From: Frankiales bacterium
Lineage (GTDB): Bacteria; Actinomycetota; Actinomycetes; Mycobacteriales; SCTD01
Direction: 5' to 3'
NCBI GenBank assembly: GCA_025465465.1
Contig: JAODND010000091.1
Location: forward strand, 20,850 to 84,849
Length of the DNA stretch: 64,000 nt
This document shows, one piece after another, positions 318-30,109 of this stretch. The notes below the pieces were generated by a model that was given only the letters and a program-made list of their open reading frames with translations, had not been told where the DNA came from and did no database searches. Made by a program: the position numbers and the translations under genes. The stretch's first letter is position 1. Each line of letters begins with the position of its first letter.

Positions 318-1232
318 TCAGGACGCGCCGTGCGGGACGGGACGGTCGAACGCCGCCTCGAGCACGTCGCGCTCCTGCTCGGCGCTCATCGGCACGGCGT
401 AGTCCGCTTCGGAGCAGATCGTCGCCCAGTGGTCGCGGACATCCTCGAGCGTCAGCGACGGCGAGTAGTAGCCGGGGCCTTCGGCGATGAAAACCCGGGC
501 GACCCGGCCGGCGGCCGCGGAGAGGATCTCGCCTGAGGCGTCACAGGACTCGTGGGCCAGGTACGCCACGACGGGGGACACCAGAGCCGGGTCGAGCCGC
601 CGCTCCCAGTCCTCGTCAAGCAGACCAGCGGACATGGTGGTGGCCGCGATGGGCGCGACGACGTTCGCGCGAATCCCGTATTTCGCACCCTCGAGAGCGA
701 GCACCCGCGTCATCCCGACGAGCGCCATCTTGGCCGCGCCGTAGTTGGTCTGGCCGAAGTTGCCGAACAACCCTGCCGCCGACGTCGTCGAGATGATGCG
801 TCCGTACCCCGCGTCCTTCATGTGCTCGTAGGCCGGCCGGGTCACGAAGAACGCGCCACGCAGGTGCACGTCGAGGACCGGGTCGAGCAGGTCGGCGGTC
901 ATCTTCGGGAAGGTCCGGTCGCGCACGATGCCGGCGTTGTTCACGACGATGTCGAGGCGGCCGTAGGTCGTGATCGCCGTGTCGACGATCGCCTGTCCCC
1001 CGGCGGGTGTCGCGACGGAGTTGCTGTCCACGACGGCGGAGCCGCCCGCGGCCACGATCTCATCGACGACCTGCTGGGCAGGTGCCGGCTCGCCGTCCTT
1101 GCCGGGCGCGAGGTCGTTCACCACCACGGCCGCTCCCCGGGCCGCGAGCAGCAGGGCGTGCGCACGACCGAGCCCTGCCCCCGCACCTGTGACGATGGCG
1201 ACACGATCGTCGAAGCGAAGTTCCATGCTCAT
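318..1232 (-). CDS. SDR oxidoreductase, MFE-2/Hsd4A-type (3R)-hydroxyacyl-CoA dehydrogenase-like
   Basis: Part of ORF 318..1349. Internal start MSMELRFDDRVAIVTGAGAGLGRAHALLLA at 1232 forms an ATGA overlap with the upstream stop (1229). It has the TGxxxGxG Rossmann motif and NNAG, with an extended C-terminal domain as in MFE-2 dehydrogenases. Confidence 0.8.
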   Translation of the reverse strand: MSMELRFDDRVAIVTGAGAGLGRAHALLLAARGAAVVVNDLAPGKDGEPAPAQQVVDEIVAAGGSAVVDSNSVATPAGGQAIVDTAITTYGRLDIVVNNAGIVRDRTFPKMTADLLDPVLDVHLRGAFFVTRPAYEHMKDAGYGRIISTTSAAGLFGNFGQTNYGAAKMALVGMTRVLALEGAKYGIRANVVAPIAATTMSAGLLDEDWERRLDPALVSPVVAYLAHESCDASGEILSAAAGRVARVFIAEGPGYYSPSLTLEDVRDHWATICSEADYAVPMSAEQERDVLEAAFDRPVPHGAS

Positions 1233-2389
1233 GCTCCAGGGTCGAGGGCAACGGCACCAGATGCCGCGAGCTCGCGGATCGAGTCGTGCGGGTAGCCGAG
1301 CTCCTCGAGCAGGGCCTGCGTGTGCTCGCCGAGACGCGGTGCCCTGCACCGGATCGGGCTCGCCGTGCCGTCGAAGAGAAGGGGCTGCCTCACGACCCTC
1401 GTGCCGGGCTGGTCGGGGAGCTCGACGATCATCCCGCGGGCCACGACCTGGGGGTCGCCCGCGACGGCCTGGTCGTCATGGACAGGGCCGAAACCGACGC
1501 CACCCTCGACCAGACGCCGTTCGAGCTCCGGCCAATCGGTGTCCCGGAAGCAGGACTCGAGACGTGTGGTGATCTCGGCCGCGCGCGACTCTCGCTGCAC
1601 CGTGGTGAGCGGTGCGAGATCGGGCAGCCCGAGCGCCTCGCACAGCGCGCTCCACTGGTGGTCCTCCCCCGCGATGCTGAGGGTCACCAGCTGGCCGCTC
1701 GCTGTCGTGAACACCCCGTAGCCCGGATCCACGGGGGGGTACGGAGCGGGGTCGAGTCCGTTCAGCGACGATGTCAACGCCGTGCTCCGCCAGCTCACGA
1801 GCGCATCGAGCATCGAGACGTCGAGGTAGCTCGACAGCTGGTGCCGCTCCCTGCCGAGCAGCGCGCTCACGATCCCGAGCGCCGCGAACATGCCGGAGGC
1901 GAGGTCGGCCAGCGGCAGCGGTGCGGGCGCAGGGACGTCGCCGGTGACCAGCCCCGCCAGTCCCTGCACCGAGATGTCGTGGCCCCCGCGGTCCCCCAGT
2001 GGTCCGGTCTGCCCGAAGCTCGAGATCGAGGCATAGATGACTTTCGGCAGCTGGGTCTGCACCTCTTTGGCGCCGATCCCCAGCCGGTCGACGACGCCCG
2101 GCTTGTAGCCCTCCACGATGACGTCGGCGGTGGCGGCCAGCTTCCAGAAGACCTGACGCCCCTCGGTCGACTTCAGGTCGAGCGCCATCGACCGCTTGTT
2201 GCGGTTCAGGCCCTCGAAATGCCCGGAGAACCGTCGGGTCGGGTCCCCCCCGGCGGGCCGCTCGACCAGCACGACATCGGCACCGAGATCCGCGAGCAGC
2301 ATGGTGGCGAACGGACCGGGGTACTGCTCGGCCAGGCTGAGCACGCAGATCCCGGCGAGCGGACTGTCCGACCGAGGGTCTGCTGTCAC
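1229..2389 (-). CDS. family III CoA-transferase (CaiB/BaiF type)
   Basis: 386 aa. N-terminus LAGICVLSLAEQYPGPFATMLLADLGADVVLVERP is typical of family III CoA-transferases. The GTG start overlaps the DUF35 stop (GTGA). Confidence 0.85.
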   Translation of the reverse strand: MTADPRSDSPLAGICVLSLAEQYPGPFATMLLADLGADVVLVERPAGGDPTRRFSGHFEGLNRNKRSMALDLKSTEGRQVFWKLAATADVIVEGYKPGVVDRLGIGAKEVQTQLPKVIYASISSFGQTGPLGDRGGHDISVQGLAGLVTGDVPAPAPLPLADLASGMFAALGIVSALLGRERHQLSSYLDVSMLDALVSWRSTALTSSLNGLDPAPYPPVDPGYGVFTTASGQLVTLSIAGEDHQWSALCEALGLPDLAPLTTVQRESRAAEITTRLESCFRDTDWPELERRLVEGGVGFGPVHDDQAVAGDPQVVARGMIVELPDQPGTRVVRQPLLFDGTASPIRCRAPRLGEHTQALLEELGYPHDSIRELAASGAVALDPGA

Positions 2390-2862
2390 TGGGCTGGGCT
2401 GAGCGGCTCGAACCAGAAGTCGGTGACTCTTCCCTCCGGATCGTCACGGAAGACCATCTTCACCCGCGCCTCGATGCGGAGCGCTTCGTTGAGACCGTCC
2501 TCGAGGTCGAGGTCGACCCCCTGCAGGTAGTTGCAGATCGCCGACGTTGCTCCGTCCGGTCGGACGTACGCAACTGCGTACGGCACCGGAGGCGAGCCGG
2601 CGAACGGAGCGGTCACCACGGTGACTGCCTCGATGACTCCCTCCTTGCCGACCTCGACGAGCTCCTCGACCGGGATGAAGCAGAACTCGCAGAACGACTT
2701 CGGCGGGACGGCGACCCGACCGCACTGCCCGCAGCGGCACCCGAGGATGCGCTGCTCGCGCAGAGCGTCGAAGAAGGCAGAGGCGAAGGTGCCGATCGTG
2801 TACTGGTAGGGGATGCGCCACTCGCCGGGGAGGCGGGCGGGCACGGTCGTCGGATGAGTCAT
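2386..2862 (-). CDS. DUF35 OB-fold / zinc-ribbon acyl-CoA-associated protein
   Basis: Internal ATG at 2862 (MTHPTTVPARLPGEW...). It has a CxxC...CxxC ribbon (CRCGQCGRVAVPPKSFCEFC) followed by OB-fold-like sequence. The upstream part of ORF 2386..3033 overlaps the thiolase gene and was dropped. Confidence 0.8.
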   Translation of the reverse strand: MTHPTTVPARLPGEWRIPYQYTIGTFASAFFDALREQRILGCRCGQCGRVAVPPKSFCEFCFIPVEELVEVGKEGVIEAVTVVTAPFAGSPPVPYAVAYVRPDGATSAICNYLQGVDLDLEDGLNEALRIEARVKMVFRDDPEGRVTDFWFEPLSPAQ

Positions 2863-2875
2863 GGTCCGCTCGCTC

Positions 2876-4057
2876 TCAGTCGGGTTCCGCGGCAAGCACC
2901 GCGGCTGTGTAGAACTGGTCGATGCCCCCGCAGGCGGTGGCGAGCGCCAGCCGGGCACCGTCGACCTGGTGGTCGCCGGCCCTGCCCATGACCTGCAGCG
3001 CTGCCTCCCCGAAGCGGACGAGACCGGTGGCACCGATCGGGTTCGCGGTCATGCAGCCACCTGACGGCACAACGGGGATGTCACCGTCCATCGCGGTGGC
3101 GCCGGTCTCGACGAGCTCGATGCCGCGTCCATGAGGAGCGAGCTGCAGCGACTCGTAGTAGGCGATCTCGAGGTTGGCGAACGGCGCGTAGACCTCGACG
3201 ACGTCGAGCTCCCGGCGGGGGTTGGTGATGCCGGCCTCGCGATAGGCCTCTGTCGCCGCCCAGGCTTGTGCCCGCGGGATGGCGAAGTCCGACTCGTCGT
3301 CGTGCAGCCGGTCGCCGATGCGGTAGACGTCAGCCGCACAGCCCAGGCCCTTCACATAGGCGGCGTGGGCCTTGGTCTTCGCCTTGGCCGCGGTCGTCAT
3401 CACCACGGCTGCCGAGCCGTCCGACCGGGGACAGGTGTGCAGCAGCCGCAGCGGGTGCGCCAGCGACCTCGACTCCTTGACGTCCTTCTCGGTGATCGTC
3501 TTCTGCAGGTGTGCGTATGGGTTGCGCAGCGCGTTCGTGAAGTTCTTCACCGAGATCCACGCCATGTGGTCCTCGGTCAGCCCGAAGTACTTCATCTGCC
3601 GGGACGCGACCAGCGCGATGCCGGTGATGACGTTGAGCTGCACGTCCTGCTCGTAGATCGGGTCGAAGATCGTCGTGAAGACTGCCTGTGCATCGGCCGT
3701 CTCCGACGTGCGCTGCAGGCCCACGACAAGGACGGTCTCGTACACGCCCGCACTGATGAGGCGGGCGGCAGCGAGCGGGCCCGAGCCGCCGGTGGCTCCG
3801 CCAGTGTGCACCCGGATCACGGGCTTCCCCACGCCCCCGAACGCGTCGAGACACCATCGCTCCGGCTCGTACACGCCCTCGAAGACCTCCGGGGCGGAGG
3901 CGAAGACCACGGCATCGATCTCGGACAACTCGGTGTCTGCGTCAGCCAGCGCCCGGCTGACCGCCTCGAACACCAGCTCCGGCGTACCCACGTCGAGCCG
4001 GGACGTCTTGTAGCGGGTCTGCCCAAAGCCGAGAACGGCTGCCTGCGGGCCGCTCAC
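2876..4057 (-). CDS. thiolase-fold protein (SCP-x/Ltp-like); nucleophile loop apparently lacks Cys
   Basis: 393 aa with thiolase-like motifs (LLHTCPRSDGSAAVV, GGCMTANPIGATG, ATACGG). The expected nucleophile segment reads HTGGATGGSG, with no Cys, and the GHP motif reads ANP. The GTG start overlaps the upstream stop (GTGA). Confidence 0.8.
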   Translation of the reverse strand: MSGPQAAVLGFGQTRYKTSRLDVGTPELVFEAVSRALADADTELSEIDAVVFASAPEVFEGVYEPERWCLDAFGGVGKPVIRVHTGGATGGSGPLAAARLISAGVYETVLVVGLQRTSETADAQAVFTTIFDPIYEQDVQLNVITGIALVASRQMKYFGLTEDHMAWISVKNFTNALRNPYAHLQKTITEKDVKESRSLAHPLRLLHTCPRSDGSAAVVMTTAAKAKTKAHAAYVKGLGCAADVYRIGDRLHDDESDFAIPRAQAWAATEAYREAGITNPRRELDVVEVYAPFANLEIAYYESLQLAPHGRGIELVETGATAMDGDIPVVPSGGCMTANPIGATGLVRFGEAALQVMGRAGDHQVDGARLALATACGGIDQFYTAAVLAAEPD

Positions 4058-4953
4058 GGTGTCTCCACCACGGCGGCATAGGCGGTCTCCATGCTGAGTC
4101 CTCCTCCAGCGATGACCAACGTGATCCCGCTGTCAGGCGGCTCCAGCCCGCTCAGCAGCGCGTGCAGCCCCGCCGCATAGCCGAGGTCCACGTAGCGCTC
4201 AGGTCGTCGGGCGATCAGGTCGACAGGGACGCCGACGGCGTCCGCGATGGGGGCGTCATCCAGGTGCTGCATGCCCGCGACCCGGACCCGGCTGACATCA
4301 CCGGCCTTGCGGCCCGCGCTCGTCAACGCCGCGGCTGCCGCCTTCGCGACCGGCGCGAGCACGGGGGCCCCGGGCCGCAGATAGGGCCCCGTCGAGGCGC
4401 CGATCCCGACGACGTCGGCGCGGCGGCGACGCCCCGGGGTGAGGCGCGTGAGGATGAGCGCCGTGGCGACATCGACGCTGCGCACGGCCGTCGGAGCCAA
4501 CCGGGTCGGCGCCGCTTGCTCAGCCGACGTGCGCAGTGCGAGCGCCACCCCGGGATGGAACCCCAGGCCCCGCGAGTACACCGGCTCGAGGCCCAGCGGC
4601 AGGATCGCGTCGCGGTCGGCGTCACTCAGCTTGCTCCACGTGCAGACGATGACGGCGTCGGAGACCCCCGACTCGATGTCGGCCACCGCGAGCATGAGGG
4701 CGGCGAGGCTGTCGGTGCAGACGCGCATCTCGTTGCGTCGGAACGAGCCGGTCGAACCGGTGAGGGTCATGGTCGAGATGGCTCGTCCGTCGTACAGGTC
4801 GGACGCCGCCATGAACGAGCCCGAGACGTCCGCGATGCCCAGGCCGGCGTCACGCAGCGCTCCCGACGTGGCCGTGTAGATCATCTCGTCGAGGGCCATG
4901 GGGATGTCGGGCTCGGGCGGCAGGACGTGATAGCCCGCGATGACCGCTTGCAT
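4054..4953 (-). CDS. short degenerate thiolase-fold protein (probable partner subunit)
   Basis: 299 aa. The N-terminal half aligns by eye to a thiolase N-domain (RVCTDSLAALMLAVADIESG). The C-terminus ends IAGGGLSMETA without the usual His/Cys motifs. It is tightly coupled to the downstream thiolase-fold gene. Confidence 0.65.
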   Translation of the reverse strand: MQAVIAGYHVLPPEPDIPMALDEMIYTATSGALRDAGLGIADVSGSFMAASDLYDGRAISTMTLTGSTGSFRRNEMRVCTDSLAALMLAVADIESGVSDAVIVCTWSKLSDADRDAILPLGLEPVYSRGLGFHPGVALALRTSAEQAAPTRLAPTAVRSVDVATALILTRLTPGRRRRADVVGIGASTGPYLRPGAPVLAPVAKAAAAALTSAGRKAGDVSRVRVAGMQHLDDAPIADAVGVPVDLIARRPERYVDLGYAAGLHALLSGLEPPDSGITLVIAGGGLSMETAYAAVVETP

Positions 4954-4990
4954 GTGGGTCGCACCTACTCTCTCGGCGTCAGTTGTTGCG

Positions 4991-5404
4991 TCATGCGGGC
5001 AGCTCGGCGATGGCCGTGCCTGAGAACACGAGCTGACCGTGCTGGTTCAGCGTCTGGACTTCGAAGGAGTGCAGGACTCCCGTGGCTGAGGGGGTGGTCC
5101 CTGTCAGGGTCACCGTGCCGGTGAGCGCGTCGCCCGGCACGACCGGGGCGTGGAAGCGGCCGGTGTACTCGCGCAGGCTCTCGACGCCGACCAGGTCGGT
5201 GACGAGCCTGGCGCTCAAGCCCATGGTGAACATGCCGTGCGCGATGACCGAGCCATAACCGGCGCGCTCGACCGCGTAGGGCTCGTCGTGATGGAGGGGG
5301 TTGTAGTCGCCTGAGGCGCCCGCGTACTGCACGATCGTGGCGCGGGAGATCTCTGGGTGCAGCAGCACGGTGCGCGAGCAGCCAGGCGCAAGGGTTCCGG
5401 TCAT
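4991..5404 (-). CDS. MaoC-like (R)-specific enoyl-CoA hydratase (hotdog fold)
   Basis: Internal ATG at 5404 (MTGTLAPG...) forms an ATGA overlap with the upstream gene. The motif YAGASGDYNPLHHDEPYA is the MaoC dehydratase signature. Confidence 0.8.
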   Translation of the reverse strand: MTGTLAPGCSRTVLLHPEISRATIVQYAGASGDYNPLHHDEPYAVERAGYGSVIAHGMFTMGLSARLVTDLVGVESLREYTGRFHAPVVPGDALTGTVTLTGTTPSATGVLHSFEVQTLNQHGQLVFSGTAIAELPA

Positions 5405-5856
5405 CGATCGGCACCGATCTCGACCTCGACGGCAACGGAGCTGACGATGACCGCGTCGTCGCCGTCGTGGAAGTCGGTGACGATCTCCCGGAAGCTCAGG
5501 ACGCCGCCAGCACGGCTGGGCTTCTGCCAGCTGTTGCCGGTGCGCTTCCGGGCCACGAGAACCTCTCCGACGCGCACCGGCCGGGTGTAGGTGAAGCGCT
5601 GCTCGGCATGGAGCACGACCGTGCCCGGCCGGTCGACGGTGGCCGCCTTCGCCGAGGCGGGCCAGGGCTCCCCCGGTCGCGGGCGCCACGGATAGCCCGG
5701 GATGAACTGCTGGAGGGCCTCGGTGAAGGTGGGCGGCGCGGCGACGCCGGCCTCGCCGCGGTAGGCGGGGTTGTCGTCGCAGACGGCTCGGGCAAACAGC
5801 ATCACGTGCACCGGGTCGACCGGGAAGCGGAGCTCAGCCACCAGAACGCACCGCAC
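5401..5856 (-). CDS. MaoC N-terminal-type hotdog protein (ChsH1-like hydratase subunit)
   Basis: 151 aa. FARAVCDDNPAYRGE... resembles the non-catalytic or partner hotdog subunit of heteromeric hydratases. The start is GTG at 5856, with an alternative GTG at 5841. Confidence 0.75.
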   Translation of the reverse strand: MRCVLVAELRFPVDPVHVMLFARAVCDDNPAYRGEAGVAAPPTFTEALQQFIPGYPWRPRPGEPWPASAKAATVDRPGTVVLHAEQRFTYTRPVRVGEVLVARKRTGNSWQKPSRAGGVLSFREIVTDFHDGDDAVIVSSVAVEVEIGADR

Positions 5857-6967
5857 CAGCGAGCAGCGCGCGGCGGTGTGCCGAGGGTGACCCGAACGCG
5901 ACGCGTCCAGCGACCGCGCGCCGCAAGTACAGATGAGCCGGGTGCTCCCAGGTGTAGCCGATGCCCCCCAGCGTCTGGATCATCGTCCCCGCCGACTTGT
6001 AGGCGGCGTCCGAGGCGGCGGCCTTGGCGACATGCGACATGCTCACGGCCTCAGAGCTCGACATGGCCAGCTCCCGAAGGGCGTAGGACGTCACGCACTT
6101 CGCGGCCTCGTTGTCCATGTAGGCGTTGACGAGCTGGTGCTTCACGGCCTGGAAGCTGCCGATCTGGCGACCGAACTGCTCCCGCTGCAGGGCATACCGG
6201 ACGGCGACATCGACGCAGTGCTCGGCGATGCCCACGAGCTCAGCGGCCAGGCACGTGGGCACGAGGACGCGCAGGCGGTCCAGGACCCGTTGGCCGGCGT
6301 CGAAGGCGCCCAGTGGTCGGGCAGGTGCGCCTGCGAAGTCGATCTGCGCCGAGCTACGGGTCAGGTCCATCCCACCGGTCGCCGTGCGGACCTGCCCTTG
6401 GGCATCCCGGTCCACGGCGAAGCACATCGTCCCGTCGTCCGCCGCGGCGAGGACGACGAGCAGGTCCGCCTCGCAGCCGTCCCACACGTCCTCGGCCCGG
6501 CCGTCGAGCTGCCAGCCGTCGGGGCCCCGGGTGGCACGGACCCCCTGCGCGGCCATCAGGCCGTCGGTGCCCAGTGCCAGCCCTGCCAGGCTGGCCGTCA
6601 GCTTCCCCTGCACGATCCGCGGCAGCAGGTCCTGTTGCGCGACCTGGTCGCCCGACGCGAGCAGCGCCTGCCCGGCGAGCACGACGGTCGAGAAGTATGG
6701 ACCGGAGTAGAGGGCGCGCCCGAGCTCGGTGAGGACGACCCCGAGGAACGACAGGGGGGCGCCCGTGCCTCCGAGCTCGACGGGTGTGGCGACCCCCAGC
6801 ACGTCGACCTCGGTCGACAGCCTCGTCCAGAGTTCCGCGTCCGTCGGCGCGCACTGGTCGACGGCGGCGAGCTGACGCGACGCACTGGTGCTGGGCGCAA
6901 GGACCAGACGCAGGGTCTGCTGCAGCTGCCGGTGCTCTTCGTCGTGGTGCCGGCCGGAGCTGCTCAT
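5834..6967 (-). CDS. acyl-CoA dehydrogenase family protein (second subunit of a probable heteromeric pair)
   Basis: Internal ATG at 6967 (MSSSGRHHDEEHRQLQQTL...) forms an ATGA overlap with the upstream ACAD. The C-terminal TLGGIGYTWEHPAHLYLRRA is ACAD C-domain-like. Confidence 0.8.
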   Translation of the reverse strand: MSSSGRHHDEEHRQLQQTLRLVLAPSTSASRQLAAVDQCAPTDAELWTRLSTEVDVLGVATPVELGGTGAPLSFLGVVLTELGRALYSGPYFSTVVLAGQALLASGDQVAQQDLLPRIVQGKLTASLAGLALGTDGLMAAQGVRATRGPDGWQLDGRAEDVWDGCEADLLVVLAAADDGTMCFAVDRDAQGQVRTATGGMDLTRSSAQIDFAGAPARPLGAFDAGQRVLDRLRVLVPTCLAAELVGIAEHCVDVAVRYALQREQFGRQIGSFQAVKHQLVNAYMDNEAAKCVTSYALRELAMSSSEAVSMSHVAKAAASDAAYKSAGTMIQTLGGIGYTWEHPAHLYLRRAVAGRVAFGSPSAHRRALLAGAVRSGG

Positions 6968-8172
6968 CTCGGCTCCTTGGGGAGGCCCAGCAGCCGCTCC
7001 CCGATGATGTTGCGCTGGATCTCGCTCGAGCCGGCGTAGATGGTCGCGGCCCGAGCCCGGAGGAAGTAGTCGGCCCACACGCTGGGCGTGTTGGCGCTGC
7101 CGGCCTCGGCCGCCGGGAAGCTGACGCCCTGCAGCCCGGTGCCGCTCGCTGTGGTGGCTGCGGATCCGAGGATGTCCATCGCGAGCTCCGTCGTCATCTG
7201 CAGCCACTCGCTCCAGAACAGCTTGTGCAGCGAGGACTCAGCGCCGATGTCCCGACCACCCAACCAGCCGTCGACGGCCTGCCGTCCGAGGCAGCGCAGC
7301 TCCTCGACGCGCTGCAGGCTGTACGCGAGCCGCTCCGCCAGCACGGGGTCGGCGAGCTGCCCGCGCTCCGCCGCGAGATCGTGCAGCCGGTCGAAGTCTC
7401 GGCGGAAGCGGGTGCCCAGGGTGGCGACGGCCTCACCTCGCTCATAGCCGAGCAGGTCCATGGCGACCGCCCAACCGCCGTTCACAGGTCCCACGACGGC
7501 ATCGAGCGGGCAGCGGGCGTCGGTGAAGAAGACCTCGTTGAACTCTTCCTCGCCGGTGAGCGTCTTCAGCGGGCGGACCTCGATGCCGGGCTGGTCGAGC
7601 TCGCAGAGCAGGAGGCTGATGCCGCTGTGCTTGCCGGCCGAGGGGTCGGTCCGGCTGAGGACGAAGATGTGCGTCGCGAGGTGCCCGTACGAGGTCCAGA
7701 TCTTCTGGCCGTTGATGGTCCAGTGGTCGTCGCTCGCGACAGCCCGTGTGCGCAGGCCGGCCAGGTCCGAGCCGGCGTCCGGCTCGGAGAACCCCTGGCA
7801 CCAGACGTCGTCGCCGGCCAGGATCCGCGGGAGGTAGTGACGGCACTGCTCCTCCGTCCCCCACCGAAGCAGGGTGGACCCCAGCATCTGGATGCCGAAG
7901 TTGTCGTTCAGTCCGCCCTGGGGAACACCTACCGCGGTGCACTCCTCGGCGACGATGAGCTGCTCCAGCGGACCGAGCCCAGCACCTCCGTACTGCGTCG
8001 GCCAGGTGAGGGCCAACAGCCCGTTGCTGTGCATCAGCGCGCGCCACTCCTCGCGGAACTGGTCCTGCGCCGCAGGCAGCAGGGCACCGATGCCCGTCCA
8101 GTCGGCCGGCAGGTGCTCGCCCAGGAACGCGCGAACGCGGTCCCGGAACACCGATCCGGCAGGTGCGCTCAC
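6964..8172 (-). CDS. acyl-CoA dehydrogenase
   Basis: The GTG at 8172 forms a GTGA overlap with the thiolase stop. ACAD motifs are present (TWPTQYGGAGL, CQGFSEPDAGSD, IYAGSSEIQRNIIGERLLGLP). Confidence 0.85.
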   Translation of the reverse strand: MSAPAGSVFRDRVRAFLGEHLPADWTGIGALLPAAQDQFREEWRALMHSNGLLALTWPTQYGGAGLGPLEQLIVAEECTAVGVPQGGLNDNFGIQMLGSTLLRWGTEEQCRHYLPRILAGDDVWCQGFSEPDAGSDLAGLRTRAVASDDHWTINGQKIWTSYGHLATHIFVLSRTDPSAGKHSGISLLLCELDQPGIEVRPLKTLTGEEEFNEVFFTDARCPLDAVVGPVNGGWAVAMDLLGYERGEAVATLGTRFRRDFDRLHDLAAERGQLADPVLAERLAYSLQRVEELRCLGRQAVDGWLGGRDIGAESSLHKLFWSEWLQMTTELAMDILGSAATTASGTGLQGVSFPAAEAGSANTPSVWADYFLRARAATIYAGSSEIQRNIIGERLLGLPKEPR

Positions 8173-9320
8173 AAGCGTTCGATGATGGTGGCGTTCGCCT
8201 GGCCGCCGCCCTCGCACATCGACTGCAAGCCGTAGCGGGCGCCCCGACGCTCGAGCTCGTGCAGCATCGAGACCATGATCCGGGCGCCACTCGCACCGAT
8301 CGGGTGCCCAAGAGCGATGGCGCCCCCGTTGACGTTGATGCGCTCGCTCTCGGCGCCGATCTCCTGCTGCCACGCCAGCACGACAGAGGCGAACGCCTCG
8401 TTGATCTCGAAGAGGTCGATGTCCCCGACCTCGAGGCCAGCACGGCTGAGGGCAGCGTGCGTTGCGGCGATGGGGGCGGTCAGCATGTAGACCGGGTCGT
8501 CACCGCAGACCGACATCGTGTGCACCCTCGCCCGCGGGGTCAGCCCCAGGTCCTTGACGGCTCGCTCGGAGCAGACCAGCAGGGCGGCAGCCCCGTCACT
8601 GATCTGGCTCGAGAGCGCCGCGGTGATGACGCCGCCCTCGATGAGCGGCGGCAAGGACGCCATGCGTTCGAGGCTCGTGTCGGGCCGGGGGCACTCGTCC
8701 TGGGAGCCGCCGCCGAACGCCACGATCTCGCGCTCGAAGTAGCCCCGGTCCCTGGCAGCTGCGGCGCGCCGGTGGCTCGCCAGGGCGAACTCCTCCATCT
8801 GAGCGCGGGTCAGCCCCCACTTGGAGGCGATCAGCTCCGCGGCGCGGAACTGGTTGATGTCCTGGCCCCCGTAGCGCCGTTGCCACTTCTTGCTGGTGGC
8901 GAACGGGTCCGCATGCAGCAGGTCCGCACCCGCCGACCAGGCGATGTTGAGGGGCACCACGCTCATGAGCTGGACGCCACCAGCGACGACGACGTCCTGC
9001 ACGCCGCTCATCACGGCCTGGGCCGCGAAGTGCACCGCCTGCTGGGACGATCCGCACTGTCGATCGATCGTGACGCCGGGCACGGACTCGGGAAGGCCGG
9101 CAGCCAGCCAGGACAGCCGTGCGATGTCGCCCGCCTGCGGTCCGACGGCGTCCGTCGCGCCGAGGATGACGTCGTCGACGCGTGCGGGGTCGATCCCGGC
9201 CCGACCGATCAGGGCACTCAGCGTGTGCGCCGCGACGTCCACCGGGTGCTCCGCGCTCAGACTGCCGCCGCGCCGTCCGACCTGCGTGCGGACCGCTTCG
9301 ACGATGAATGCCTCGGGCAT
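8169..9320 (-). CDS. acetyl-CoA C-acyltransferase (thiolase II, FadA-like)
   Basis: Internal ATG at 9320 (MPEAFIVEAVRTQVGRRGG...). It has the active-site context TIDRQCGSSQQA and the C-terminal MCEGGGQANA. Confidence 0.9.
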   Translation of the reverse strand: MPEAFIVEAVRTQVGRRGGSLSAEHPVDVAAHTLSALIGRAGIDPARVDDVILGATDAVGPQAGDIARLSWLAAGLPESVPGVTIDRQCGSSQQAVHFAAQAVMSGVQDVVVAGGVQLMSVVPLNIAWSAGADLLHADPFATSKKWQRRYGGQDINQFRAAELIASKWGLTRAQMEEFALASHRRAAAARDRGYFEREIVAFGGGSQDECPRPDTSLERMASLPPLIEGGVITAALSSQISDGAAALLVCSERAVKDLGLTPRARVHTMSVCGDDPVYMLTAPIAATHAALSRAGLEVGDIDLFEINEAFASVVLAWQQEIGAESERINVNGGAIALGHPIGASGARIMVSMLHELERRGARYGLQSMCEGGGQANATIIERL

Positions 9321-9366
9321 CGGGAGTTCCCTCTGGTGTGTCGACACTGCAACACGGACGACGTTA

Positions 9367-9786
9367 TCAACCAAACGATTGGTAGTCAACGTCTCGTGAT
9401 GGCTCGCAGAGGTCCGCGAGCCGGCCCAGGGCCCGCCCGACGGACAGCGCGAGGCCTGCCAGCAGGTCGTCGGGCTCGAGCTCGGTCGTGTAGCTGACGG
9501 AGCACCGGTCGTCGCCCTCGGCCGTCACCTCGACCGTGCCGAGGTGCAGGTCGACCGCGAGTCCTTCCGTGATCCGGTACTGCAGCAGCCGGCGCTCGGG
9601 GTCGTTGACCAGGATCTGTTCAACGATCACCGCGCCGGAGTGCAGCTCGCAGACCCGCTGCGCGCCCTCCATCCGGCAGCTCTGCACGCTCGGAAACCAC
9701 TGGGGCAGCGCGCTCGCATCGCCGACGATCGCCCAGACGGACTCCGCTGCCGCCGCGAGCTGCCTGACCTGGCGATCCACGCTCAC
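9367..9786 (-). CDS. SRPBCC (polyketide cyclase/dehydrase-like) ligand-binding protein
   Basis: The GTG at 9786 is preceded by GGAGG 4 nt upstream. The sequence VDRQVRQLAAAAESVWAIVGDASALPQWFPSV... is typical of the SRPBCC N-terminus. Confidence 0.7.
   Translation of the reverse strand: MSVDRQVRQLAAAAESVWAIVGDASALPQWFPSVQSCRMEGAQRVCELHSGAVIVEQILVNDPERRLLQYRITEGLAVDLHLGTVEVTAEGDDRCSVSYTTELEPDDLLAGLALSVGRALGRLADLCEPSRDVDYQSFG
9370..9383. promoter_or_regulatory. candidate operator, site 1: ACCAAACGATTGGT
   Basis: A 14-bp palindrome 49 nt upstream of the thiolase start (9320), with flanks ca...ta conserved across the other sites. Confidence 0.6.
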
Positions 9787-9803
9787 GATACCTCCACGAG
9801 ACA

Positions 9804-9817
9804 ACCAACCGTTTGGT
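9804..9817. promoter_or_regulatory. candidate operator, site 2: ACCAACCGTTTGGT
   Basis: Lies in the 81-bp divergent gap between the SRPBCC start (9786) and the acyl-CoA ligase start (9868). Confidence 0.6.
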
Positions 9818-9867
9818 ACGGTACGCTGGTCATGCGAAGGTGACAAGCGCGTGACCGGGATGGAGCC

Positions 9868-11400
9868 ATGACGGAGCTCTCACTAGGTGAGGTGTTCGCG
9901 GCGCGCGCCCGTGACCTCGGCGCGTCGCCCGCTCTGATCGCCGACGGCGTCGAACTGAGCTTCGCCGAGCTCGACGACCGCGCCGGACGGCTGGCCGGTG
10001 CTCTGCGCGCCGCGTCGGTGGGGACCGGCAGCAGGGTCGGTTACCTCGGCAGGAACAGCTCCGAGTACGTCGTGTCGCTCGCCGCGTGCGGCAAGCTCGG
10101 CGCCGTCATGGTCCCGCTCAACTGGCGGCTGGCGCACGCAGAGCTGGTGGCGATCCTCGCCGACGCGCAGGCTGTTCTCGTCATCGTCGACGACGAGTTC
10201 ACCGCCGCCGCCGAGACCTTGCGCGCAGATCGCGGCGTCGCGGCCGACGTTCGGCTCGTCGACACCCGCTCGCCAGCCGGCCCCCGCTGGTACGACGGCC
10301 ACGCTCCGCACCTGCCGACGTCGCTGCCGCCCGCCGAGGCGGTTGCCCTCCAGCTGTACACGTCCGGCACCACCGGACGGCCGAAGGGCGTCCTGTCGAG
10401 CCACGTCTCGGTGATCGAGTCACTCAGGCTGCTCAGCCGCGTCGCCGGGATCCAGCGGTCCTCGGTCAGCCTGTGCACGCTGCCGACGTTCCACATCGGA
10501 GGGACGTCCTGGACACTGGCCGGCATCTTCGCCGGCTGTCCGACGGTGCTCCTGCGGGAGACCGACGCCGAGGCCGTGCTCGACGCCGTGGCGGCGCAGC
10601 ACGTCACGACGATGATCGCCGTGCCCGCCGTGATCCAGCTGCTCGTCGAAGCACTGCACGACGGCGACACCCGAGGGAAGACGCTCGAGCGGCTCTACTA
10701 CGGCGGTGGCCCGATGACCGGGCCGGTGCTGGAGCGCGCGCTCGCGGCGTTCGGCTGCGAGTTCGTGCAGGGCTTCGGCATGACCGAGCTGCCCTTGATG
10801 CTCGCGCTGACCCCTGACCTGCACGTGCCCGGCTCGCCGCTGCTGCTCTCGTGCGGACAGCTGGTGCCCGAGACCGAGGCGCGCATCGTCGACCCGGCGA
10901 CCGAGGCCGAGGTGGGCCCCGGCAGCGTGGGCGAGCTGTGGGTCAGGTCGTCGCGCACGATGCTCGGCTACTGGAACCAACCCGACGAGACGGCAAAGGC
11001 TCTCGTGCCCGGCGGCTGGCTGCGCACCGGCGACGCGATGCACGTGGACGAGGACGGCTTCTACTTCCTCCACGACCGCATCAAGGACGTCATCATCTCG
11101 GGCGGCGAGAACATCTACTCAGCCGAGGTCGAGAACGTGCTCATGGCCCATCCGGCGATCCTCGAGTGTGCCGTCATCGGCGTGCCGTCTGCTCGATGGA
11201 CCGAGACGGTCAAGGCCGTCGTGGTGCTGCGGGCAGGGCACTCGGCCGCTGACAGCGAGCTCATCAGCTTCTGCAGGGAGCGACTGGCCGGCTACAAGTG
11301 CCCGACCTCCGTCGAGGTCGTCGCCGCTCTGCCCCGGACCCCTTCGGGCAAGGTGCGGAAGGCCGACCTCCGAAAGCCGTACTGGCCTGCGACCCGCTAG
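9868..11400 (+). CDS. AMP-dependent acyl-CoA synthetase/ligase (FadD-like)
   Basis: 510 aa. It has the AMP-binding motif YTSGTTGRPKGV, plus GELWVRS, TGDA and PSGKVRK. Confidence 0.9.
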   Translation: MTELSLGEVFAARARDLGASPALIADGVELSFAELDDRAGRLAGALRAASVGTGSRVGYLGRNSSEYVVSLAACGKLGAVMVPLNWRLAHAELVAILADAQAVLVIVDDEFTAAAETLRADRGVAADVRLVDTRSPAGPRWYDGHAPHLPTSLPPAEAVALQLYTSGTTGRPKGVLSSHVSVIESLRLLSRVAGIQRSSVSLCTLPTFHIGGTSWTLAGIFAGCPTVLLRETDAEAVLDAVAAQHVTTMIAVPAVIQLLVEALHDGDTRGKTLERLYYGGGPMTGPVLERALAAFGCEFVQGFGMTELPLMLALTPDLHVPGSPLLLSCGQLVPETEARIVDPATEAEVGPGSVGELWVRSSRTMLGYWNQPDETAKALVPGGWLRTGDAMHVDEDGFYFLHDRIKDVIISGGENIYSAEVENVLMAHPAILECAVIGVPSARWTETVKAVVVLRAGHSAADSELISFCRERLAGYKCPTSVEVVAALPRTPSGKVRKADLRKPYWPATR

Positions 11401-12044
11401 CGCGGACGGGCCGCCGCGGCAGGCTCCGCGACACCGAGGACGGCTGCCAGCGCGAGCTGTGCGTAGCTCTTCGCGACCTCGGCCGGGGAGTCCTTCCCAT
11501 CCGGCCGGTACCAGTCGGCCACCCAGTTGGTCCCGCCGATGACGAACGACGACACGAACCGCTGGTTGACGGTGCCCTGGAGCCCCTTGAACTTGTACGC
11601 CGCGGCGATCAGGTCTCGCAGGTAGCGGTCGTACTGACGGCGGCGCTCCACCAGCTTCGCGCGCCGCTCACCTGTGAGATAGCGCCAGTCCCTGAAGTAC
11701 AGCGACTGCAGCTCCAGGTTCTGCAGGGTGTTGGCCACACCGCGCTCGAGGTAGGCCCGCAGCCGCTCGACGGGGTCGACGTCGAGCGCCTCGAGCTCTC
11801 GCATCATCAGCTCGGCGTCGCCATGCGCGTTCTCGAAGATCTGGAAGAGCAGGTCTTCCTTGGAGTCGATGTAGTGGTAGACGCTGCCCTTCAGCACGCC
11901 CACGGCATCCGCCACGTCCTGGATGCTGGCTGCCGCATAGCCCTTCTCCGCGAAGATGGCCAGAGCAGCCTGCAGGATCTCCGCTTCGCGGTTGCGGCGA
12001 CCGGCCGGCGCAGCACCGGACTTCCGCGCGTTCGACTTCATCAC
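11397..12044 (-). CDS. TetR/AcrR family transcriptional regulator
   Basis: 215 aa. The N-terminal HTH reads ILQAALAIFAEKGYAAASIQDVADAVGVLKGSVYHYIDSKEDLL. It converges on the ligase gene with a 4-nt overlap. Confidence 0.9.
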   Translation of the reverse strand: MMKSNARKSGAAPAGRRNREAEILQAALAIFAEKGYAAASIQDVADAVGVLKGSVYHYIDSKEDLLFQIFENAHGDAELMMRELEALDVDPVERLRAYLERGVANTLQNLELQSLYFRDWRYLTGERRAKLVERRRQYDRYLRDLIAAAYKFKGLQGTVNQRFVSSFVIGGTNWVADWYRPDGKDSPAEVAKSYAQLALAAVLGVAEPAAAARPR

Positions 12045-12095: not shown

Positions 12096-12935
12096 TCAGA
12101 GCCCAGCTGCGTCGGCCATGACGGCAAGAGCTTCCAGGGACTTGTCGCGAGGCAGCGTCTCCAGCAGGAACACGCACACGTCCACGCCCATGGCTTCGTA
12201 GGACGCGATCTGCTCGGGGTCCGCCGCCATGCCGAACAGGTAGACGGGGACGCGCCCCCGCCCGAGCTCCTCCGACCTCCGGCGCAGTTCCGAGATCCGC
12301 TCCGGCAGGTCCGGCATCGGCGGCCAGCCTGGGTTGGGTGCCCACGCATCTGCGTACTCGAGGACCCGGTCGACGACCGTCGGCCCCATGCCACCGAGGA
12401 CGATCGGCGGGTGGGGAAGCTGCGCGGGTCTGGGCCGCACCGTGGTGGGCGCGATGGTCACGAGCTCCCCGTCGAAGCTGGCCACCTCCTCGGACCACAG
12501 CTGCGTGATGGCGCGCACCCGCTCACCGAGAAGCTTCGTGCGCGTGCGCGGATCCGTGCCGTGCTGCCGCATCTCGTCGACGTTCCAGCCCGCGCTCACG
12601 CCGAACACGAACCGCCCCCCGCTCAGCTGATCGAGGCTGGCGACCGACTTGGCGGTGTGGATCGGGTCACGCTGGACGAGCAGGCACATGCCGGTGCCCA
12701 CTCGCAGTGTCCGGGTTGCCGCGGCGGCAACCGTCAGGGCGACGAACGGGTCGTAGGTGTGGAAGTACTCGGGCGGAAGGTCTCCCCCACCGGGGTAGGG
12801 CGTCTCCCGGCTGGCAGGGATGTTGGAGTGCTCCGTCAGGAACAAGTAGTCGAACCCGTGTCCCTCCAGGCCCACGGCCAGGTCATCCGGCCGAATGCTG
12901 TCGTCGGTCGCGAACGTGACGATCCCGAACTCCAC
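12096..12935 (-). CDS. LLM-class (luciferase-like) F420-dependent oxidoreductase
   Basis: 279 aa. MEFGIVTFATDDSIRPDDLA...FDYLFLTEHSNIP...SGGRFVFGVSAGWN resembles the F420-dependent LLM subfamily. The GTG start is preceded by AAGGAG. Confidence 0.85.
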   Translation of the reverse strand: MEFGIVTFATDDSIRPDDLAVGLEGHGFDYLFLTEHSNIPASRETPYPGGGDLPPEYFHTYDPFVALTVAAAATRTLRVGTGMCLLVQRDPIHTAKSVASLDQLSGGRFVFGVSAGWNVDEMRQHGTDPRTRTKLLGERVRAITQLWSEEVASFDGELVTIAPTTVRPRPAQLPHPPIVLGGMGPTVVDRVLEYADAWAPNPGWPPMPDLPERISELRRRSEELGRGRVPVYLFGMAADPEQIASYEAMGVDVCVFLLETLPRDKSLEALAVMADAAGL

Positions 12936-12946
12936 TGCTGGCTCCT

Positions 12947-14412: not shown

Positions 14413-14444
14413 CACCACGTGTGGAGCCTCTCTGGTCGGCTCGT

Positions 14445-15912: not shown

Positions 15913-15945
15913 GAGCGGGTCCCTTTCGAGGGTGACGAGTTACCA

Positions 15946-30107: not shown

Positions 30108-30109
30108 CG

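What the first reader, a model, noticed from the sequence alone, without database searches (positions are those of the whole stretch)
2386..4953. Two degenerate thiolase-fold proteins plus a stand-alone DUF35: probably a lyase or scaffold complex, not a thiolase
This is a by-eye alignment. In the 393-aa protein, the segment where thiolases carry the nucleophilic Cys reads HTGGATGGSG, with no Cys. The usual GHP motif reads ANP, while a C-terminal ACGG is kept. The 299-aa neighbour keeps a Cys in the nucleophile-like context (RVCTDSLAAL). It lacks recognisable C-terminal His/Cys motifs and is about 100 aa shorter than a thiolase. The canonical Cys-His-Cys set therefore appears split or lost across two coupled subunits, next to a zinc-ribbon/OB-fold DUF35 protein. 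Thiolase-fold enzymes that work with DUF35 partners include the steroid side-chain retro-aldolase Ltp2 and the archaeal thiolase/HMG-CoA synthase/DUF35 complex. A heterotrimeric C-C lyase is a reasonable hypothesis here.
Basis: partly seen in the sequence, partly recalled or inferred. Interest (0 to 1): 0.6.

Follow-up and report, generated by a model that had tools for sequence, protein, structure and literature searches.

The report
Cys-less thiolase-fold pair with DUF35
Three translationally coupled genes encode two thiolase-shaped proteins that have lost the thiolase catalytic set plus a zinc-ribbon DUF35 protein; this looks like an undescribed heteromeric relative of the steroid side-chain aldolases, probably cutting a C-C bond in a branched acyl-CoA without thiolysis.

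Summary
On the minus strand, 4054-4953 (299 aa), 2876-4057 (393 aa) and 2386-2862 (158 aa, DUF35) are real genes. The 299-aa and 393-aa genes overlap by 4 nt. The 393-aa protein is an SCP2/archaeal-type thiolase fold with Gly87 at the nucleophile position, Asn339 in place of the GHP His, and Y290-A-P-F where SCP2 thiolases have HDCF. These residues hold in 109-114 of 114 relatives. Tyr290 sits where the catalytic base Tyr of the aldolases Ltp2 and Sal sits. The 299-aa protein has no Pfam hit, but its model is a thiolase fold lacking about 70-80 residues. Its Cys79 lies at the nucleophile position, yet the wider partner family has Ala/Ser/Thr there, so the triad is lost rather than split. The small-large-DUF35 order recurs in every locus examined. 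Natural DUF35-small fusions exist. More distant modules carry a full-length, Cys-less partner. Neighbouring genes are usually an acyl-CoA dehydrogenase, a hydratase and a CoA ligase. Best reading: a DUF35-dependent heteromeric retro-aldolase, with confidence about 0.5. It fails the second-catalytic-residue test for both Ltp2 and Sal, so I class it as a new variant of a known kind. Substrate and stoichiometry are unknown.

The parts
4054..4953 (-). Small subunit (299 aa). A truncated thiolase-fold protein of an unannotated family, with invariant Cys79 at the nucleophile position.
   Evidence: No Pfam hit. AF2 pLDDT 84.5, pTM 0.87. Foldseek PDB E about 1e-15 and TM 0.7 to SCP2-type thiolases. 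hhalign to the large family gives 98.6 % probability. 80 homologues, all about 300 aa and named 'hypothetical protein'. Invariant residues are listed.
2876..4057 (-). Large subunit (393 aa). A Cys-less SCP2/archaeal-type thiolase fold with Gly87, Tyr290-Ala-Pro-Phe and Asn339; the presumed catalytic subunit.
   Evidence: Thiolase_C_1 91 bits and Thiolase_N 32 bits. Best NCBIfam PRK08313 at 371 bits, below the 514 cut-off. PDB alignments. Family conservation. AF2 pLDDT 87.4, pTM 0.91. TM 0.82-0.89 to 6esq, 7pxp, 9myr, 6ok1 and 5m3k_C. The GTG start overlaps the small gene's TGA by 4 nt.
2386..2862 (-). Stand-alone DUF35 protein (158 aa) with a Cys4 zinc ribbon and an OB fold.
   Evidence: PF12172 and PF01796 both above cut-off. 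3irb E = 4e-17; archaeal DUF35 6esq_E 1.7e-4; ChsH2-DUF35 6ok1_B 3.7e-4. The ATG lies 13 nt after the large gene's stop. By the ORF coordinates, its stop overlaps the CaiB start by 4 nt.
1229..2389 (-). Family III CoA-transferase / racemase-fold protein (CaiB/BaiF type); operon partner.
   Evidence: PF02515 291 bits. 57-67 % identical in five orthologous operons.
318..1232 (-). SDR, probably an (R)-3-hydroxyacyl-CoA dehydrogenase; operon partner. The start is approximate.
   Evidence: adh_short 145 bits; PRK07791 243 bits. 68-79 % identical in orthologous operons.
4991..5404 (-). MaoC hydratase subunit. Its ATG at 5404 overlaps the stop of the upstream MaoC gene.
   Evidence: PF01575 75.8 bits. 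Start mapped.
5401..5856 (-). MaoC-N-type hot-dog partner subunit of the hydratase.
   Evidence: PF13452 42 bits. Same gene pair in L001 and L006.
5834..8180 (-). Two acyl-CoA dehydrogenase genes: about 6964-8180 (PimC-like) and 5834-6970 (PimD/IpdE2-like, no middle-domain hit). Probably an alpha2beta2 enzyme. Starts are approximate.
8169..9320 (-). Genuine thiolase (FadA type) with the nucleophilic Cys intact.
   Evidence: PRK07801 618.6 bits, above the 591 cut-off. Thiolase_N and Thiolase_C hits. The nucleophilic Cys (RQC) and GHP His are seen in A3.
9367..9846 (-). Small protein whose counterpart in the orthologous operons is annotated SRPBCC / Polyketide_cyc2; not scanned directly here.
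   Evidence: 34-47 % identical to the product annotated 'SRPBCC family protein' in L001 and to the PF10604 gene of L006, by tblastn. No NCBIfam hit at E <= 1e-10.
9868..11400 (+). Acyl-CoA synthetase (FadD type), divergently placed here and inside the operon elsewhere.
   Evidence: PRK06187 473.5 bits, just under the 476 cut-off. 48-65 % identical in orthologous operons.
11397..12044 (-). TetR-family regulator, conserved next to the operon.
   Evidence: 50-60 % identity in L001, L003, L004 and L006.

Best explanation
The three genes encode one complex. The 393-aa thiolase-fold subunit binds a 3-hydroxyacyl-CoA made by the neighbouring acyl-CoA dehydrogenase and MaoC hydratase. It cleaves the C-alpha/C-beta bond by a retro-aldol reaction with no covalent acyl-enzyme. 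Tyr290 acts as the base on the beta-hydroxyl. The backbone around Gly87 and Gly377 positions the hydroxyl and stabilises the enolate. The products would be acetyl- or propionyl-CoA plus a ketone or aldehyde. The DUF35 protein staples and shapes the substrate cleft, as it does in Ltp2 and Sal. The truncated 299-aa paralogue takes the place of the second thiolase-fold protomer or dimer and opens or lines the pocket for a bulky or branched substrate. The complex would serve the beta-oxidation step at which the beta-carbon is tertiary and cannot be oxidised by the SDR and cut by the FadA thiolase encoded in the same operon.

Shown: the fold, loss of the thiolase residues, presence of the aldolase-type Tyr and Gly, the conserved three-gene module, DUF35-small fusions, and the dehydrogenase/hydratase context.

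Inferred: association, the aldolase chemistry, the role of each subunit, and the substrate class.
For: 1. The large subunit lacks the nucleophile: Gly87 in 114 of 114 relatives. Sal has a Gly at the position of the SCP2-thiolase nucleophilic Cys; its Gly89 backbone contacts the substrate hydroxyl, and an equivalent Gly is proposed for Ltp2 (PMC12329534).
2. Tyr290 (109 of 114) occupies the first position of the [H/Y]D[C/H][F/Y] motif (alignment to HDCF of 6hsj). That position is the catalytic base Tyr294 in Ltp2 and Tyr302 in Sal (PMC12329534).
3. The large subunit's structural neighbours include every solved DUF35-partnered thiolase fold, at TM 0.82-0.89.
4. A DUF35 gene follows the large gene in every locus examined: 12 complete modules in 11 loci (L001, L003-L014 apart from L002), plus the window.
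5. Small and large genes overlap by 4 nt here and by 4 or 1 nt in six other loci (L001, L006, L007, L008, L013, L014).
6. Three independent representatives fuse a DUF35 zinc ribbon to the small-type subunit. L012 has the fusion, then a large gene, then a DUF35 gene.
7. Context: ACAD-ACAD-MaoC-MaoC-trio mirrors the igr operon fadE28-fadE29-chsH1-chsH2(DUF35)-ltp2 (PMC12502768). L010 and L014 have an ACAD and an enoyl-CoA hydratase next to the trio, with no hydroxyacyl-CoA dehydrogenase or thiolase in the same gene run.
8. The large subunit is the most conserved protein of the operon at 78-89 % identity, against 36-54 % for the ACADs. That fits a catalytic core.
Against: - No candidate catalytic acid is identified. 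The Sal Cys304 / Ltp2 His296 position is Pro292. The Ltp2 Tyr344 position is Asn339; this equivalence rests on spacing only.
- No biochemical or structural test of association was possible, because no multimer prediction was available.
- In L008 the trio sits with an acetone-carboxylase-like enzyme, a CoA ligase and a CoA transferase, with no other thiolase. That context would call for cleavage of a beta-ketoacyl-CoA.
- The small subunit has an invariant Cys79 and a set of conserved polar residues (D52, D55, E75, K108, S110, D161). These suggest its own functional site.
- The substrate is unknown, and the window contains no steroid-ring genes.
Confidence: 0.5

Rival explanations
1. A non-canonical 'split' thiolase or acyltransferase. 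Cys79 of the small subunit is a real nucleophile. CoA binding and the remaining catalytic groups come from the large subunit and DUF35 at a shared cavity, as CoA is shared in the archaeal thiolase/HMGCS/DUF35 complex. The complex would then cleave or transfer acyl groups from 3-ketoacyl-CoAs.
For: Cys79 sits at the nucleophile position. It is invariant in 27 of 27 aligned homologues and is Cys in 17 of 24 short representatives. The L008 context lacks another thiolase but has a ketone carboxylase and CoA activation. In PhlACB and the archaeal complex the two thiolase-fold subunits and DUF35 share a cavity or a CoA site (PMC6392133).
Against: The wider partner family has Ala/Ser/Thr at this position in 74 of 94 long members and in the partners of L009-L011, with the same large subunit and DUF35. 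The small subunit has Tyr in place of the GHP His and Gly in place of the CxG Cys. It also lacks the 70-80-residue segment that is present in its full-length relatives and in the large subunit. The 12-gene operon already encodes a genuine thiolase.
Confidence: 0.15
2. A catalytically dead scaffold. Both thiolase-fold proteins are pseudoenzymes that, with DUF35, organise the dehydrogenase, hydratase, SDR and thiolase into a channelling assembly.
For: Both subunits lack the thiolase triad. In Sulfolobus a ketothiolase/DUF35 pair recruits a reductase and a MaoC dehydratase into one complex (bioRxiv 10.1101/2024.07.05.601840). PhlA and PhlB are needed only for assembly (PMC6392133).
Against: The large subunit is 78-89 % identical across phyla, the highest value in the operon. 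About 40 of its columns are invariant, including polar residues at active-site positions (G87, Y290, N339, N179, H183, E288). The trio also occurs without any FadA or SDR nearby.
Confidence: 0.12
3. A different non-thiolytic chemistry on an acyl-CoA. Options are decarboxylation of a malonyl- or beta-carboxyacyl-CoA (as reported weakly for TbSLP and known for Cys-less KS partners), hydrolytic retro-Claisen ring opening, or isomerisation.
For: Cys-less thiolase folds can decarboxylate: TbSLP decarboxylates malonyl-CoA, though with a very low kcat (PMC12329534). The L008 carboxylase context fits this. The missing catalytic acid of the aldolases leaves the chemistry open.
Against: TbSLP keeps YDCF with the Cys, and this family has YAPF. 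The recurrent partners are a dehydrogenase and a hydratase, which produce a beta-hydroxyacyl-CoA. No carboxylase is present in the window operon.
Confidence: 0.13

Closest known systems
Ltp2-ChsH2(DUF35) steroid C3 side-chain retro-aldolase (T. curvata / M. tuberculosis; PDB 6ok1)
   Same: SCP2-type thiolase fold (TM 0.82). Sal has Gly at the nucleophile position, and an equivalent Gly is proposed to contact the substrate hydroxyl in Ltp2. Tyr at the first position of the YDHF motif. An obligatory DUF35 partner. The gene sits after an ACAD pair and a MaoC pair, as in the igr operon.
   Different: The motif is YAPF, not YDHF. The Tyr344 acid position is Asn339. Sequence similarity is only E = 3e-13. 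The NCBIfam Ltp-type models are far below cut-off. DUF35 is a separate gene. A second, truncated thiolase-fold subunit is present, whereas Ltp2 is a homodimer.
Sal-Shy(DUF35) bile-acid C5 side-chain aldolase (C. testosteroni; PDB 9myr) and its look-alike TbSLP
   Same: Gly at the nucleophile position, Tyr base, a DUF35 partner, and TM 0.83.
   Different: The essential Cys304 of YDCY is Pro292 here. Sal is a homodimer, and its DUF35 is fused to the hydratase.
Atf1 + stand-alone DUF35 ChsH4 of Mycolicibacterium neoaurum
   Same: A thiolase-fold aldolase encoded next to a free-standing DUF35 protein of about 140 aa (PMC10398937).
   Different: It has a single thiolase-fold gene. Sequences were not compared here.
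PhlACB / MucABC acyltransferases and the archaeal thiolase/HMG-CoA synthase/DUF35 complex
   Same: Three co-expressed proteins: two thiolase-superfamily subunits plus DUF35. The gene order partner - SCP2-like subunit - DUF35 matches phlACB. The large subunit has TM 0.87-0.89 to PhlC and the archaeal thiolase.
   Different: Those complexes keep the catalytic Cys in the SCP2-like subunit (Cys88 / Cys85). Their partner is an HMGCS/KAS III-type protein. Here the SCP2-like subunit has Gly87, and the partner is itself an SCP2-type paralogue (best NCBIfam PRK06066; Thiolase_C_1 in the long forms).
Ltp3/Ltp4 of Rhodococcus and Mycobacterium (needed for C24-branched sterol side chains)
   Same: Two adjacent thiolase-like 'lipid-transfer protein' genes of unequal length, proposed to be aldol-lyases. 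This rests on my own knowledge and the citation of Wilbrink et al. 2012 in PMC10398937.
   Different: The NCBIfam 'lipid-transfer protein' models score far below cut-off: PRK08256 163 vs 436 and PRK07937 86 vs 419 for the large subunit; PRK07937 22 bits for the small subunit. I assigned these models to Ltp3/Ltp4 by name and length only. No biochemical or structural description of an Ltp3-Ltp4 complex was found.
ST0096 thiolase-like protein of Sulfolobus tokodaii (PDB 4yzo) and P. furiosus thiolase (7yvy)
   Same: The closest solved sequences, at E = 1.5e-39 and 4e-37, with TM 0.83-0.87.
   Different: 7yvy keeps Cys and GHP. 4yzo has Ser at the nucleophile position but keeps HD.. and GHP. Neither has YAPF or ANP.

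Membership tests
Thiolase (type I/II and SCP2-type) | Nucleophilic Cys at the N-terminus of helix N-alpha3 | tested here: not met
   Large subunit: Gly87 opposite the Cys of 7yvy, and Gly in 114 of 114 relatives. Small subunit: Cys79 is at that position, but it is not conserved in the wider partner family.
Thiolase (type I/II and SCP2-type) | His of the GHP motif | tested here: not met
   Large subunit: Asn339 in 112 of 114. Small subunit: Tyr259 in GYAAG.
Thiolase (type I/II and SCP2-type) | Acid/base Cys (CxG in type I/II; HDCF in SCP2 type) | tested here: not met
   HDCF is replaced by YAPF. Cys376 of ACGG is present here but in only 56 of 114 relatives. The small subunit has GGG.
Thiolase superfamily fold | Five-layer alpha-beta-alpha-beta-alpha thiolase fold / Pfam thiolase domains | tested here: met
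   Large subunit: PF22691 91 bits and PF00108 32 bits, with TM up to 0.89. Small subunit: no Pfam hit, but Foldseek E = 2e-15 and TM about 0.7, and hhalign 98.6 %.
Ltp2-type steroid aldolase | Catalytic base Tyr294 in the YDHF motif | tested here: met
   Tyr290 aligns with the H of HDCF. That position is equated with Y294 of YDHF in PMC12329534. The alignment is transitive, not direct.
Ltp2-type steroid aldolase | Catalytic acid Tyr344 and oxyanion-hole His296 | tested here: not met
   Pro292 is at the His296 position. Asn339 is at the position 49-50 residues after the Tyr; this equivalence is inferred from spacing and the GHP alignment.
Ltp2-type steroid aldolase | Membership by a curated family model | tested here: not met
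   The 'lipid-transfer protein' NCBIfam models score PRK07855 119.6 vs 469, PRK06059 151.9 vs 424 and PRK08256 162.8 vs 436.
Sal-type bile-acid aldolase / SLP | Tyr302 and Cys304 dyad (YDCY / YDCF) | tested here: not met
   The Tyr is present. The Cys position is Pro292 in 109 of 114 relatives.
DUF35-dependent thiolase-fold complexes in general | A DUF35 (zinc ribbon + OB fold) protein or domain physically bound to the thiolase-fold subunit | not testable with these tools
   The gene is adjacent in every locus examined and is fused to the small-type subunit in P0240, P0330 and P0309. No multimer model or experiment was possible.
DUF35 family | PF12172 zinc ribbon with four Cys, plus the PF01796 OB fold | tested here: met
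   36.0 and 39.3 bits, both above cut-off. The motifs are CGQC...CEFC.
PhlACB / archaeal thiolase-HMGCS-DUF35 complexes | Catalytic Cys retained in the SCP2-like subunit, and an HMGCS/KAS III-like second subunit | tested here: not met
   Gly87 is in the SCP2-like subunit. The partner's best matches are SCP2-type thiolase models (PRK06066) and structures, although FabH 2ebd is also among the hits.

The most novel reading that the evidence does not exclude
The complex may have two different active sites around one shared, DUF35-capped cavity. One would be the Tyr290 site of the large subunit. The other would lie in the truncated partner, built from Cys79 and the family-wide D52/D55/E75/K108/S110/D161 cluster. 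A CoA-tethered intermediate would then be cleaved in one site and processed in the other, for example by acyl transfer or metal- or acid-assisted chemistry. That would be a split, channelling C-C-cleaving machine with no counterpart among described thiolase-fold enzymes.
Probability: 0.12. Interest if true: 0.75.

Novelty: new variant of a known kind. Interest (0 to 1): 0.55.

Why it matters
Thiolase-fold aldolases that depend on DUF35 (Ltp2, Sal, Atf1) are recent discoveries. So far they are homodimers tied to steroid side chains.

This module would add a heteromeric form:
- It has a distinct catalytic signature (Gly87, YAPF, ANP).
- Its partner subunit is currently annotated only as 'hypothetical protein'.
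- Profile matches to the partner subunit number in the hundreds of 50 %-identity clusters (586 at E <= 0.001). The module itself was seen in Actinomycetota, a Sphingomonas, a Neobacillus and several metagenome contigs.
- It often lies outside any recognisable steroid cluster.

It would extend to the C-C-cleaving step the pattern of one active and one degenerate paralogue. That pattern is already known for steroid acyl-CoA dehydrogenases (FadE28/29) and hydratases (ChsH1/H2). It would also give genome annotators a way to stop calling these genes acetyl-CoA acetyltransferases. Aldolases of this kind are of interest as biocatalysts for branched or polycyclic acyl-CoAs.

Tried and rejected
- P0134 (686 aa) looked like a natural small-large fusion. 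Its junction is an Arg-rich frameshift artefact, so I did not use it as evidence or as a pseudo-multimer.
The gene frames differ, so no window reference spans two genes.
- The genome-contig scan with the small-subunit alignment returned only 4 loci. I took wider context from the look-up of encoding contigs instead.
- A literature search for ltp3/ltp4 returned mostly plant LTP papers. A search for OB-fold protein, thiolase, MaoC and CaiB returned nothing. A preprint on mycobacterial protein-protein interaction prediction was irrelevant.
- hhalign and MAFFT place a 3-residue gap after D81, so that Cys79 faces His84 of the large subunit. I rejected this as the functional equivalence. The R-x-C...(17)...G spacing of the small subunit matches the window's own FadA without gaps. 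The Cys-to-Gly spacing of 17 also matches 7yvy and positions G87-G104 of the large subunit.
- I considered a steroid pathway, but the window has no ring-degradation genes.
- NCBIfam did not identify the P450 or the other accessory enzymes closely enough to name a substrate.

Full report
**Observation**

The minus strand of 318-9846 carries a run of tightly packed genes with GC3 of 0.81-0.87. The three genes in the finding are:
- 4054-4953, the 299-aa 'small' protein;
- 2876-4057, the 393-aa 'large' protein;
- an ORF 2386-3033 whose plausible start is the ATG at 2862, giving a 158-aa protein.

The large gene's GTG start overlaps the small gene's TGA stop by 4 nt, as ccGTGAgc. The DUF35 ATG lies 13 nt after the large gene's stop. 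By the ORF coordinates, the DUF35 stop overlaps the start of the next gene, a CaiB-type protein, by 4 nt.

**The large subunit**

Pfam finds Thiolase_C_1 (91 bits) and Thiolase_N (32 bits). No NCBIfam model reaches its cut-off; the best is PRK08313 at 371 bits against 514.

HMMER alignments to solved structures show three substitutions:
- Gly87 opposite the nucleophilic Cys of the P. furiosus thiolase 7yvy.
- Asn339 opposite the His of GHP.
- V-Y290-A-P-F opposite the HDCF motif of zebrafish SCP2-thiolase.

These are family traits, not accidents of this gene. Among 114 relatives of 44-95 % identity the counts are:

| Position | Residue | Present in |
|---|---|---|
| 87 | Gly | 114 |
| 290 | Tyr | 109 |
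| 292 | Pro | 109 |
| 339 | Asn | 112 |
| 376 | Cys (of ACGG) | 56 |

The AF2 model is confident (pLDDT 87.4, pTM 0.91). It superposes at TM 0.82-0.89 on every solved thiolase-fold protein that works with a DUF35 partner: the archaeal thiolase 6esq, BbsB 7pxp, Sal 9myr, Ltp2 6ok1, PhlC 5m3k and MucC 9vbo.

The Sal paper supplies the comparison points. Sal has Gly at the nucleophile position, and its Gly89 backbone contacts the substrate hydroxyl; an equivalent Gly is proposed for Ltp2. In both, the first residue of the motif aligned with HDCF is the catalytic base Tyr: Y294DHF in Ltp2 and Y302DCY in Sal (PMC12329534). The large subunit shares both of these features. It lacks the second catalytic residue of either enzyme. 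The Sal Cys304 / Ltp2 His296 position is Pro292. The Ltp2 Tyr344 position is Asn339, an equivalence I infer from spacing only.

**The small subunit**

It has no Pfam hit and only weak NCBIfam hits to thiolase-like models. A search of the 5.8-billion-sequence collection found 80 homologues. The full-length ones are about 300 aa; four are named 'acetyl-CoA acetyltransferase' and the other named ones 'hypothetical protein'.

The AF2 model (pLDDT 84.5, pTM 0.87) matches SCP2-type thiolases, TbSLP, MucC and PhlC at Foldseek E of about 1e-15 and TM of about 0.7. Its profile aligns to the large family with 98.6 % probability.

A profile search of 1.84 billion cluster representatives found two groups:
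- About 20 clusters of the truncated form, roughly 280-315 aa.
- A much larger set of 340-388-aa relatives that match in two stretches. The small subunit is therefore a deletion derivative of a full-length thiolase-like partner, missing 70-80 residues in the middle.

Cys79 aligns, without gaps from R-x-C to the Gly 17 residues later, with the nucleophilic Cys of the genuine FadA thiolase encoded at 8169-9320. It is invariant among the 27 aligned homologues. The His and second-Cys positions read Tyr259 and Gly.

Across the wider partner family, position 79 is Cys in 17 of 24 short representatives and only 2 of 94 long ones; Ala, Ser or Thr dominate. Residues conserved across the whole partner family are D52, D55, G56, E75, R/K77, D81, W106, K108, S110 and D161. 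The triad is therefore not split between the subunits. It is lost, with a clade-specific Cys whose role is open.

**DUF35 and association**

The 158-aa protein has both DUF35 Pfam domains above cut-off and an intact CxxC...CxxC ribbon. Association with the other two could not be modelled. Indirect evidence is as follows:
- The order small/partner - large - DUF35 is found in all loci examined. These are R. qingshengii pLP1, an Acidimicrobiaceae MAG, Subtercola, Frankia AiPs1, Sphingomonas oryzagri, Neobacillus niacini and six metagenome or MAG contigs.
- Stop/start overlaps between the small and large genes recur in six of those loci (L001, L006, L007, L008, L013, L014).
- Three independent representatives (P0240, P0330, P0309) are fusions of a DUF35 zinc ribbon to a small-type subunit. 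In L012 such a fusion is followed by a large gene and a second DUF35 gene.
- In L011 one module has two DUF35 genes for two thiolase-like genes.

This fits a thiolase-fold core flanked by DUF35 on both sides, like the alpha-beta-beta-alpha Ltp2 and Sal complexes. A PhlACB-like arrangement of homodimers bridged by DUF35 (PMC6392133) is not excluded.

**Context**

In the window the trio is embedded in this gene order: SRPBCC-type - FadA thiolase - ACAD - ACAD - MaoC - MaoC - small - large - DUF35 - CaiB - SDR. A FadD ligase and a TetR regulator lie next to it.

The same set of genes recurs in four actinobacterial loci and in a Sphingomonas. Identity to the window proteins in those five operons ranks as follows:

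| Protein | Identity (%) |
|---|---|
| Large subunit | 78-89 |
| FadA | 73-80 |
| SDR | 68-79 |
| DUF35 | 66-77 |
| CaiB | 57-67 |
| Small subunit | 50-63 |
| ACADs | 36-54 |

The order ACAD pair - MaoC pair - thiolase-like genes - DUF35 parallels the igr operon fadE28-fadE29-chsH1-chsH2(DUF35)-ltp2 (PMC12502768).

In other loci the trio sits with different genes:
- L010 and L014: an ACAD and a crotonase-type hydratase.
- L007 and L013: a fused MaoC hydratase, CaiB, a luciferase-like oxidoreductase and a PaaK-type ligase.
- L008: an acetone-carboxylase-like enzyme, a CoA ligase, a CoA transferase and a ThDP enzyme.

 The recurrent pairing with a dehydrogenase and a hydratase, but without a hydroxyacyl-CoA dehydrogenase, is what a retro-aldolase needs. 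L008 is the exception and favours a keto-cleaving activity.

Accessory genes near the window operon are an F420-type LLM oxidoreductase, a P450, an amidohydrolase, a mycofactocin-type SDR and an ABC importer. Several of these are shared with the other operon copies. They point to a hydroxylated, branched or alicyclic substrate. No steroid-ring genes are present. The substrate is unknown.

**Most likely mechanism (confidence 0.5)**

The large subunit is the catalytic subunit of a DUF35-dependent retro-aldolase acting on the hydratase product. Tyr290 is the base. The Gly87 and Gly377 backbone positions the hydroxyl and stabilises the enolate. The truncated partner and DUF35 build the substrate cleft.

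Fold, residues, module conservation and context are shown. Association, chemistry and subunit roles are inferred. The catalytic acid is unidentified; conserved candidates are His84, His183, Cys209, Tyr272 and Glu288.

**Rivals**

- A split thiolase or acyltransferase using Cys79 (0.15).
- A pseudoenzyme scaffold (0.12).
- Another non-thiolytic chemistry such as decarboxylation or hydrolytic ring opening (0.13).

**Comparison and novelty**

The module works like Ltp2 or Sal but is not a member of either family, because the second catalytic residue is absent in both tests. It is not a thiolase. It is not a PhlACB/HMGCS-type complex either, because the SCP2-like subunit has no Cys and the partner is an SCP2-type paralogue.

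The closest solved sequences are ST0096 (4yzo) and the P. furiosus thiolase (7yvy), and both keep GHP. Stand-alone DUF35 with an aldolase is known (Atf1/ChsH4, PMC10398937). Adjacent unequal thiolase-like genes are known genetically (ltp3/ltp4, cited there). I found no description of a Cys-less heteromeric thiolase-fold pair with DUF35 in the searches I ran. Those searches were limited.

I class it as a new variant of a known kind, of moderate interest (0.55).

Noticed in passing
L007:6788-7006, L013:8650-8847, L014:8777-9004: A conserved 65-75-aa ORF (motif AERxAAxVVDxLFELDP...DPW, no Pfam hit) lies immediately upstream of the small thiolase-fold gene with a 4-nt overlap. It may be a fourth subunit of that module subtype. 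tblastn found no counterpart in the window or in the 12-gene operons.
   Followed up: partly
L012:1-2958; proteins P0240, P0330, P0309: Natural fusions join a DUF35 zinc ribbon to a truncated partner-type thiolase fold. In L012 the fusion is followed by a large-type gene and a second DUF35 gene. These fusions have Ser, not Cys, at the nucleophile position.
   Followed up: partly
L011:3337-9660: Two partner-large-DUF35 modules lie back to back on one contig. One of them has two DUF35 genes.
   Followed up: no
L006 (Sphingomonas oryzagri) versus window 318-11400: The whole 12-gene operon is shared between Actinomycetota and an alphaproteobacterium, with the large subunit 78 % identical. In R. 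qingshengii VT6 it lies on the 502-kb linear plasmid pLP1. Both facts suggest horizontal transfer.
   Followed up: partly
window 12096-16862: Next to the operon lie an F420-dependent LLM oxidoreductase (TIGR03619, above cut-off), an unclassified P450, an Amidohydrolase_2 protein and a mycofactocin-type SDR (TIGR03971, above cut-off). Homologues sit beside other copies of the operon: LLM 69 % in Subtercola, P450 56 % in Sphingomonas, SDR 68 % in R. qingshengii. They probably belong to the same unknown pathway.
   Followed up: partly
window 5834-8180: The two acyl-CoA dehydrogenase genes resemble PimC and PimD/IpdE2. The second gave no middle-domain Pfam hit, as expected for an alpha2beta2 enzyme with one degenerate subunit.
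   Followed up: no
window 32311-40210: A complete kdpABC potassium-pump operon with the kdpDE two-component system.
   Followed up: no
window 41105-46022: An ImuB-like (IMS family) gene followed by a DnaE2-type error-prone polymerase gene, forming a mutasome cassette.
   Followed up: no
window 25404-31483: An amino-acid permease, a glutamine-synthetase-like gene and an aldehyde dehydrogenase lie together. They may form a gamma-glutamylation-type amine catabolic set.
   Followed up: no
protein P0134 (metagenome): A 686-aa 'acetyl-CoA C-acetyltransferase' in the public collection is a frameshifted read-through of adjacent small and large genes. Its junction is Arg-rich. It is not a true fusion.
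   Followed up: yes
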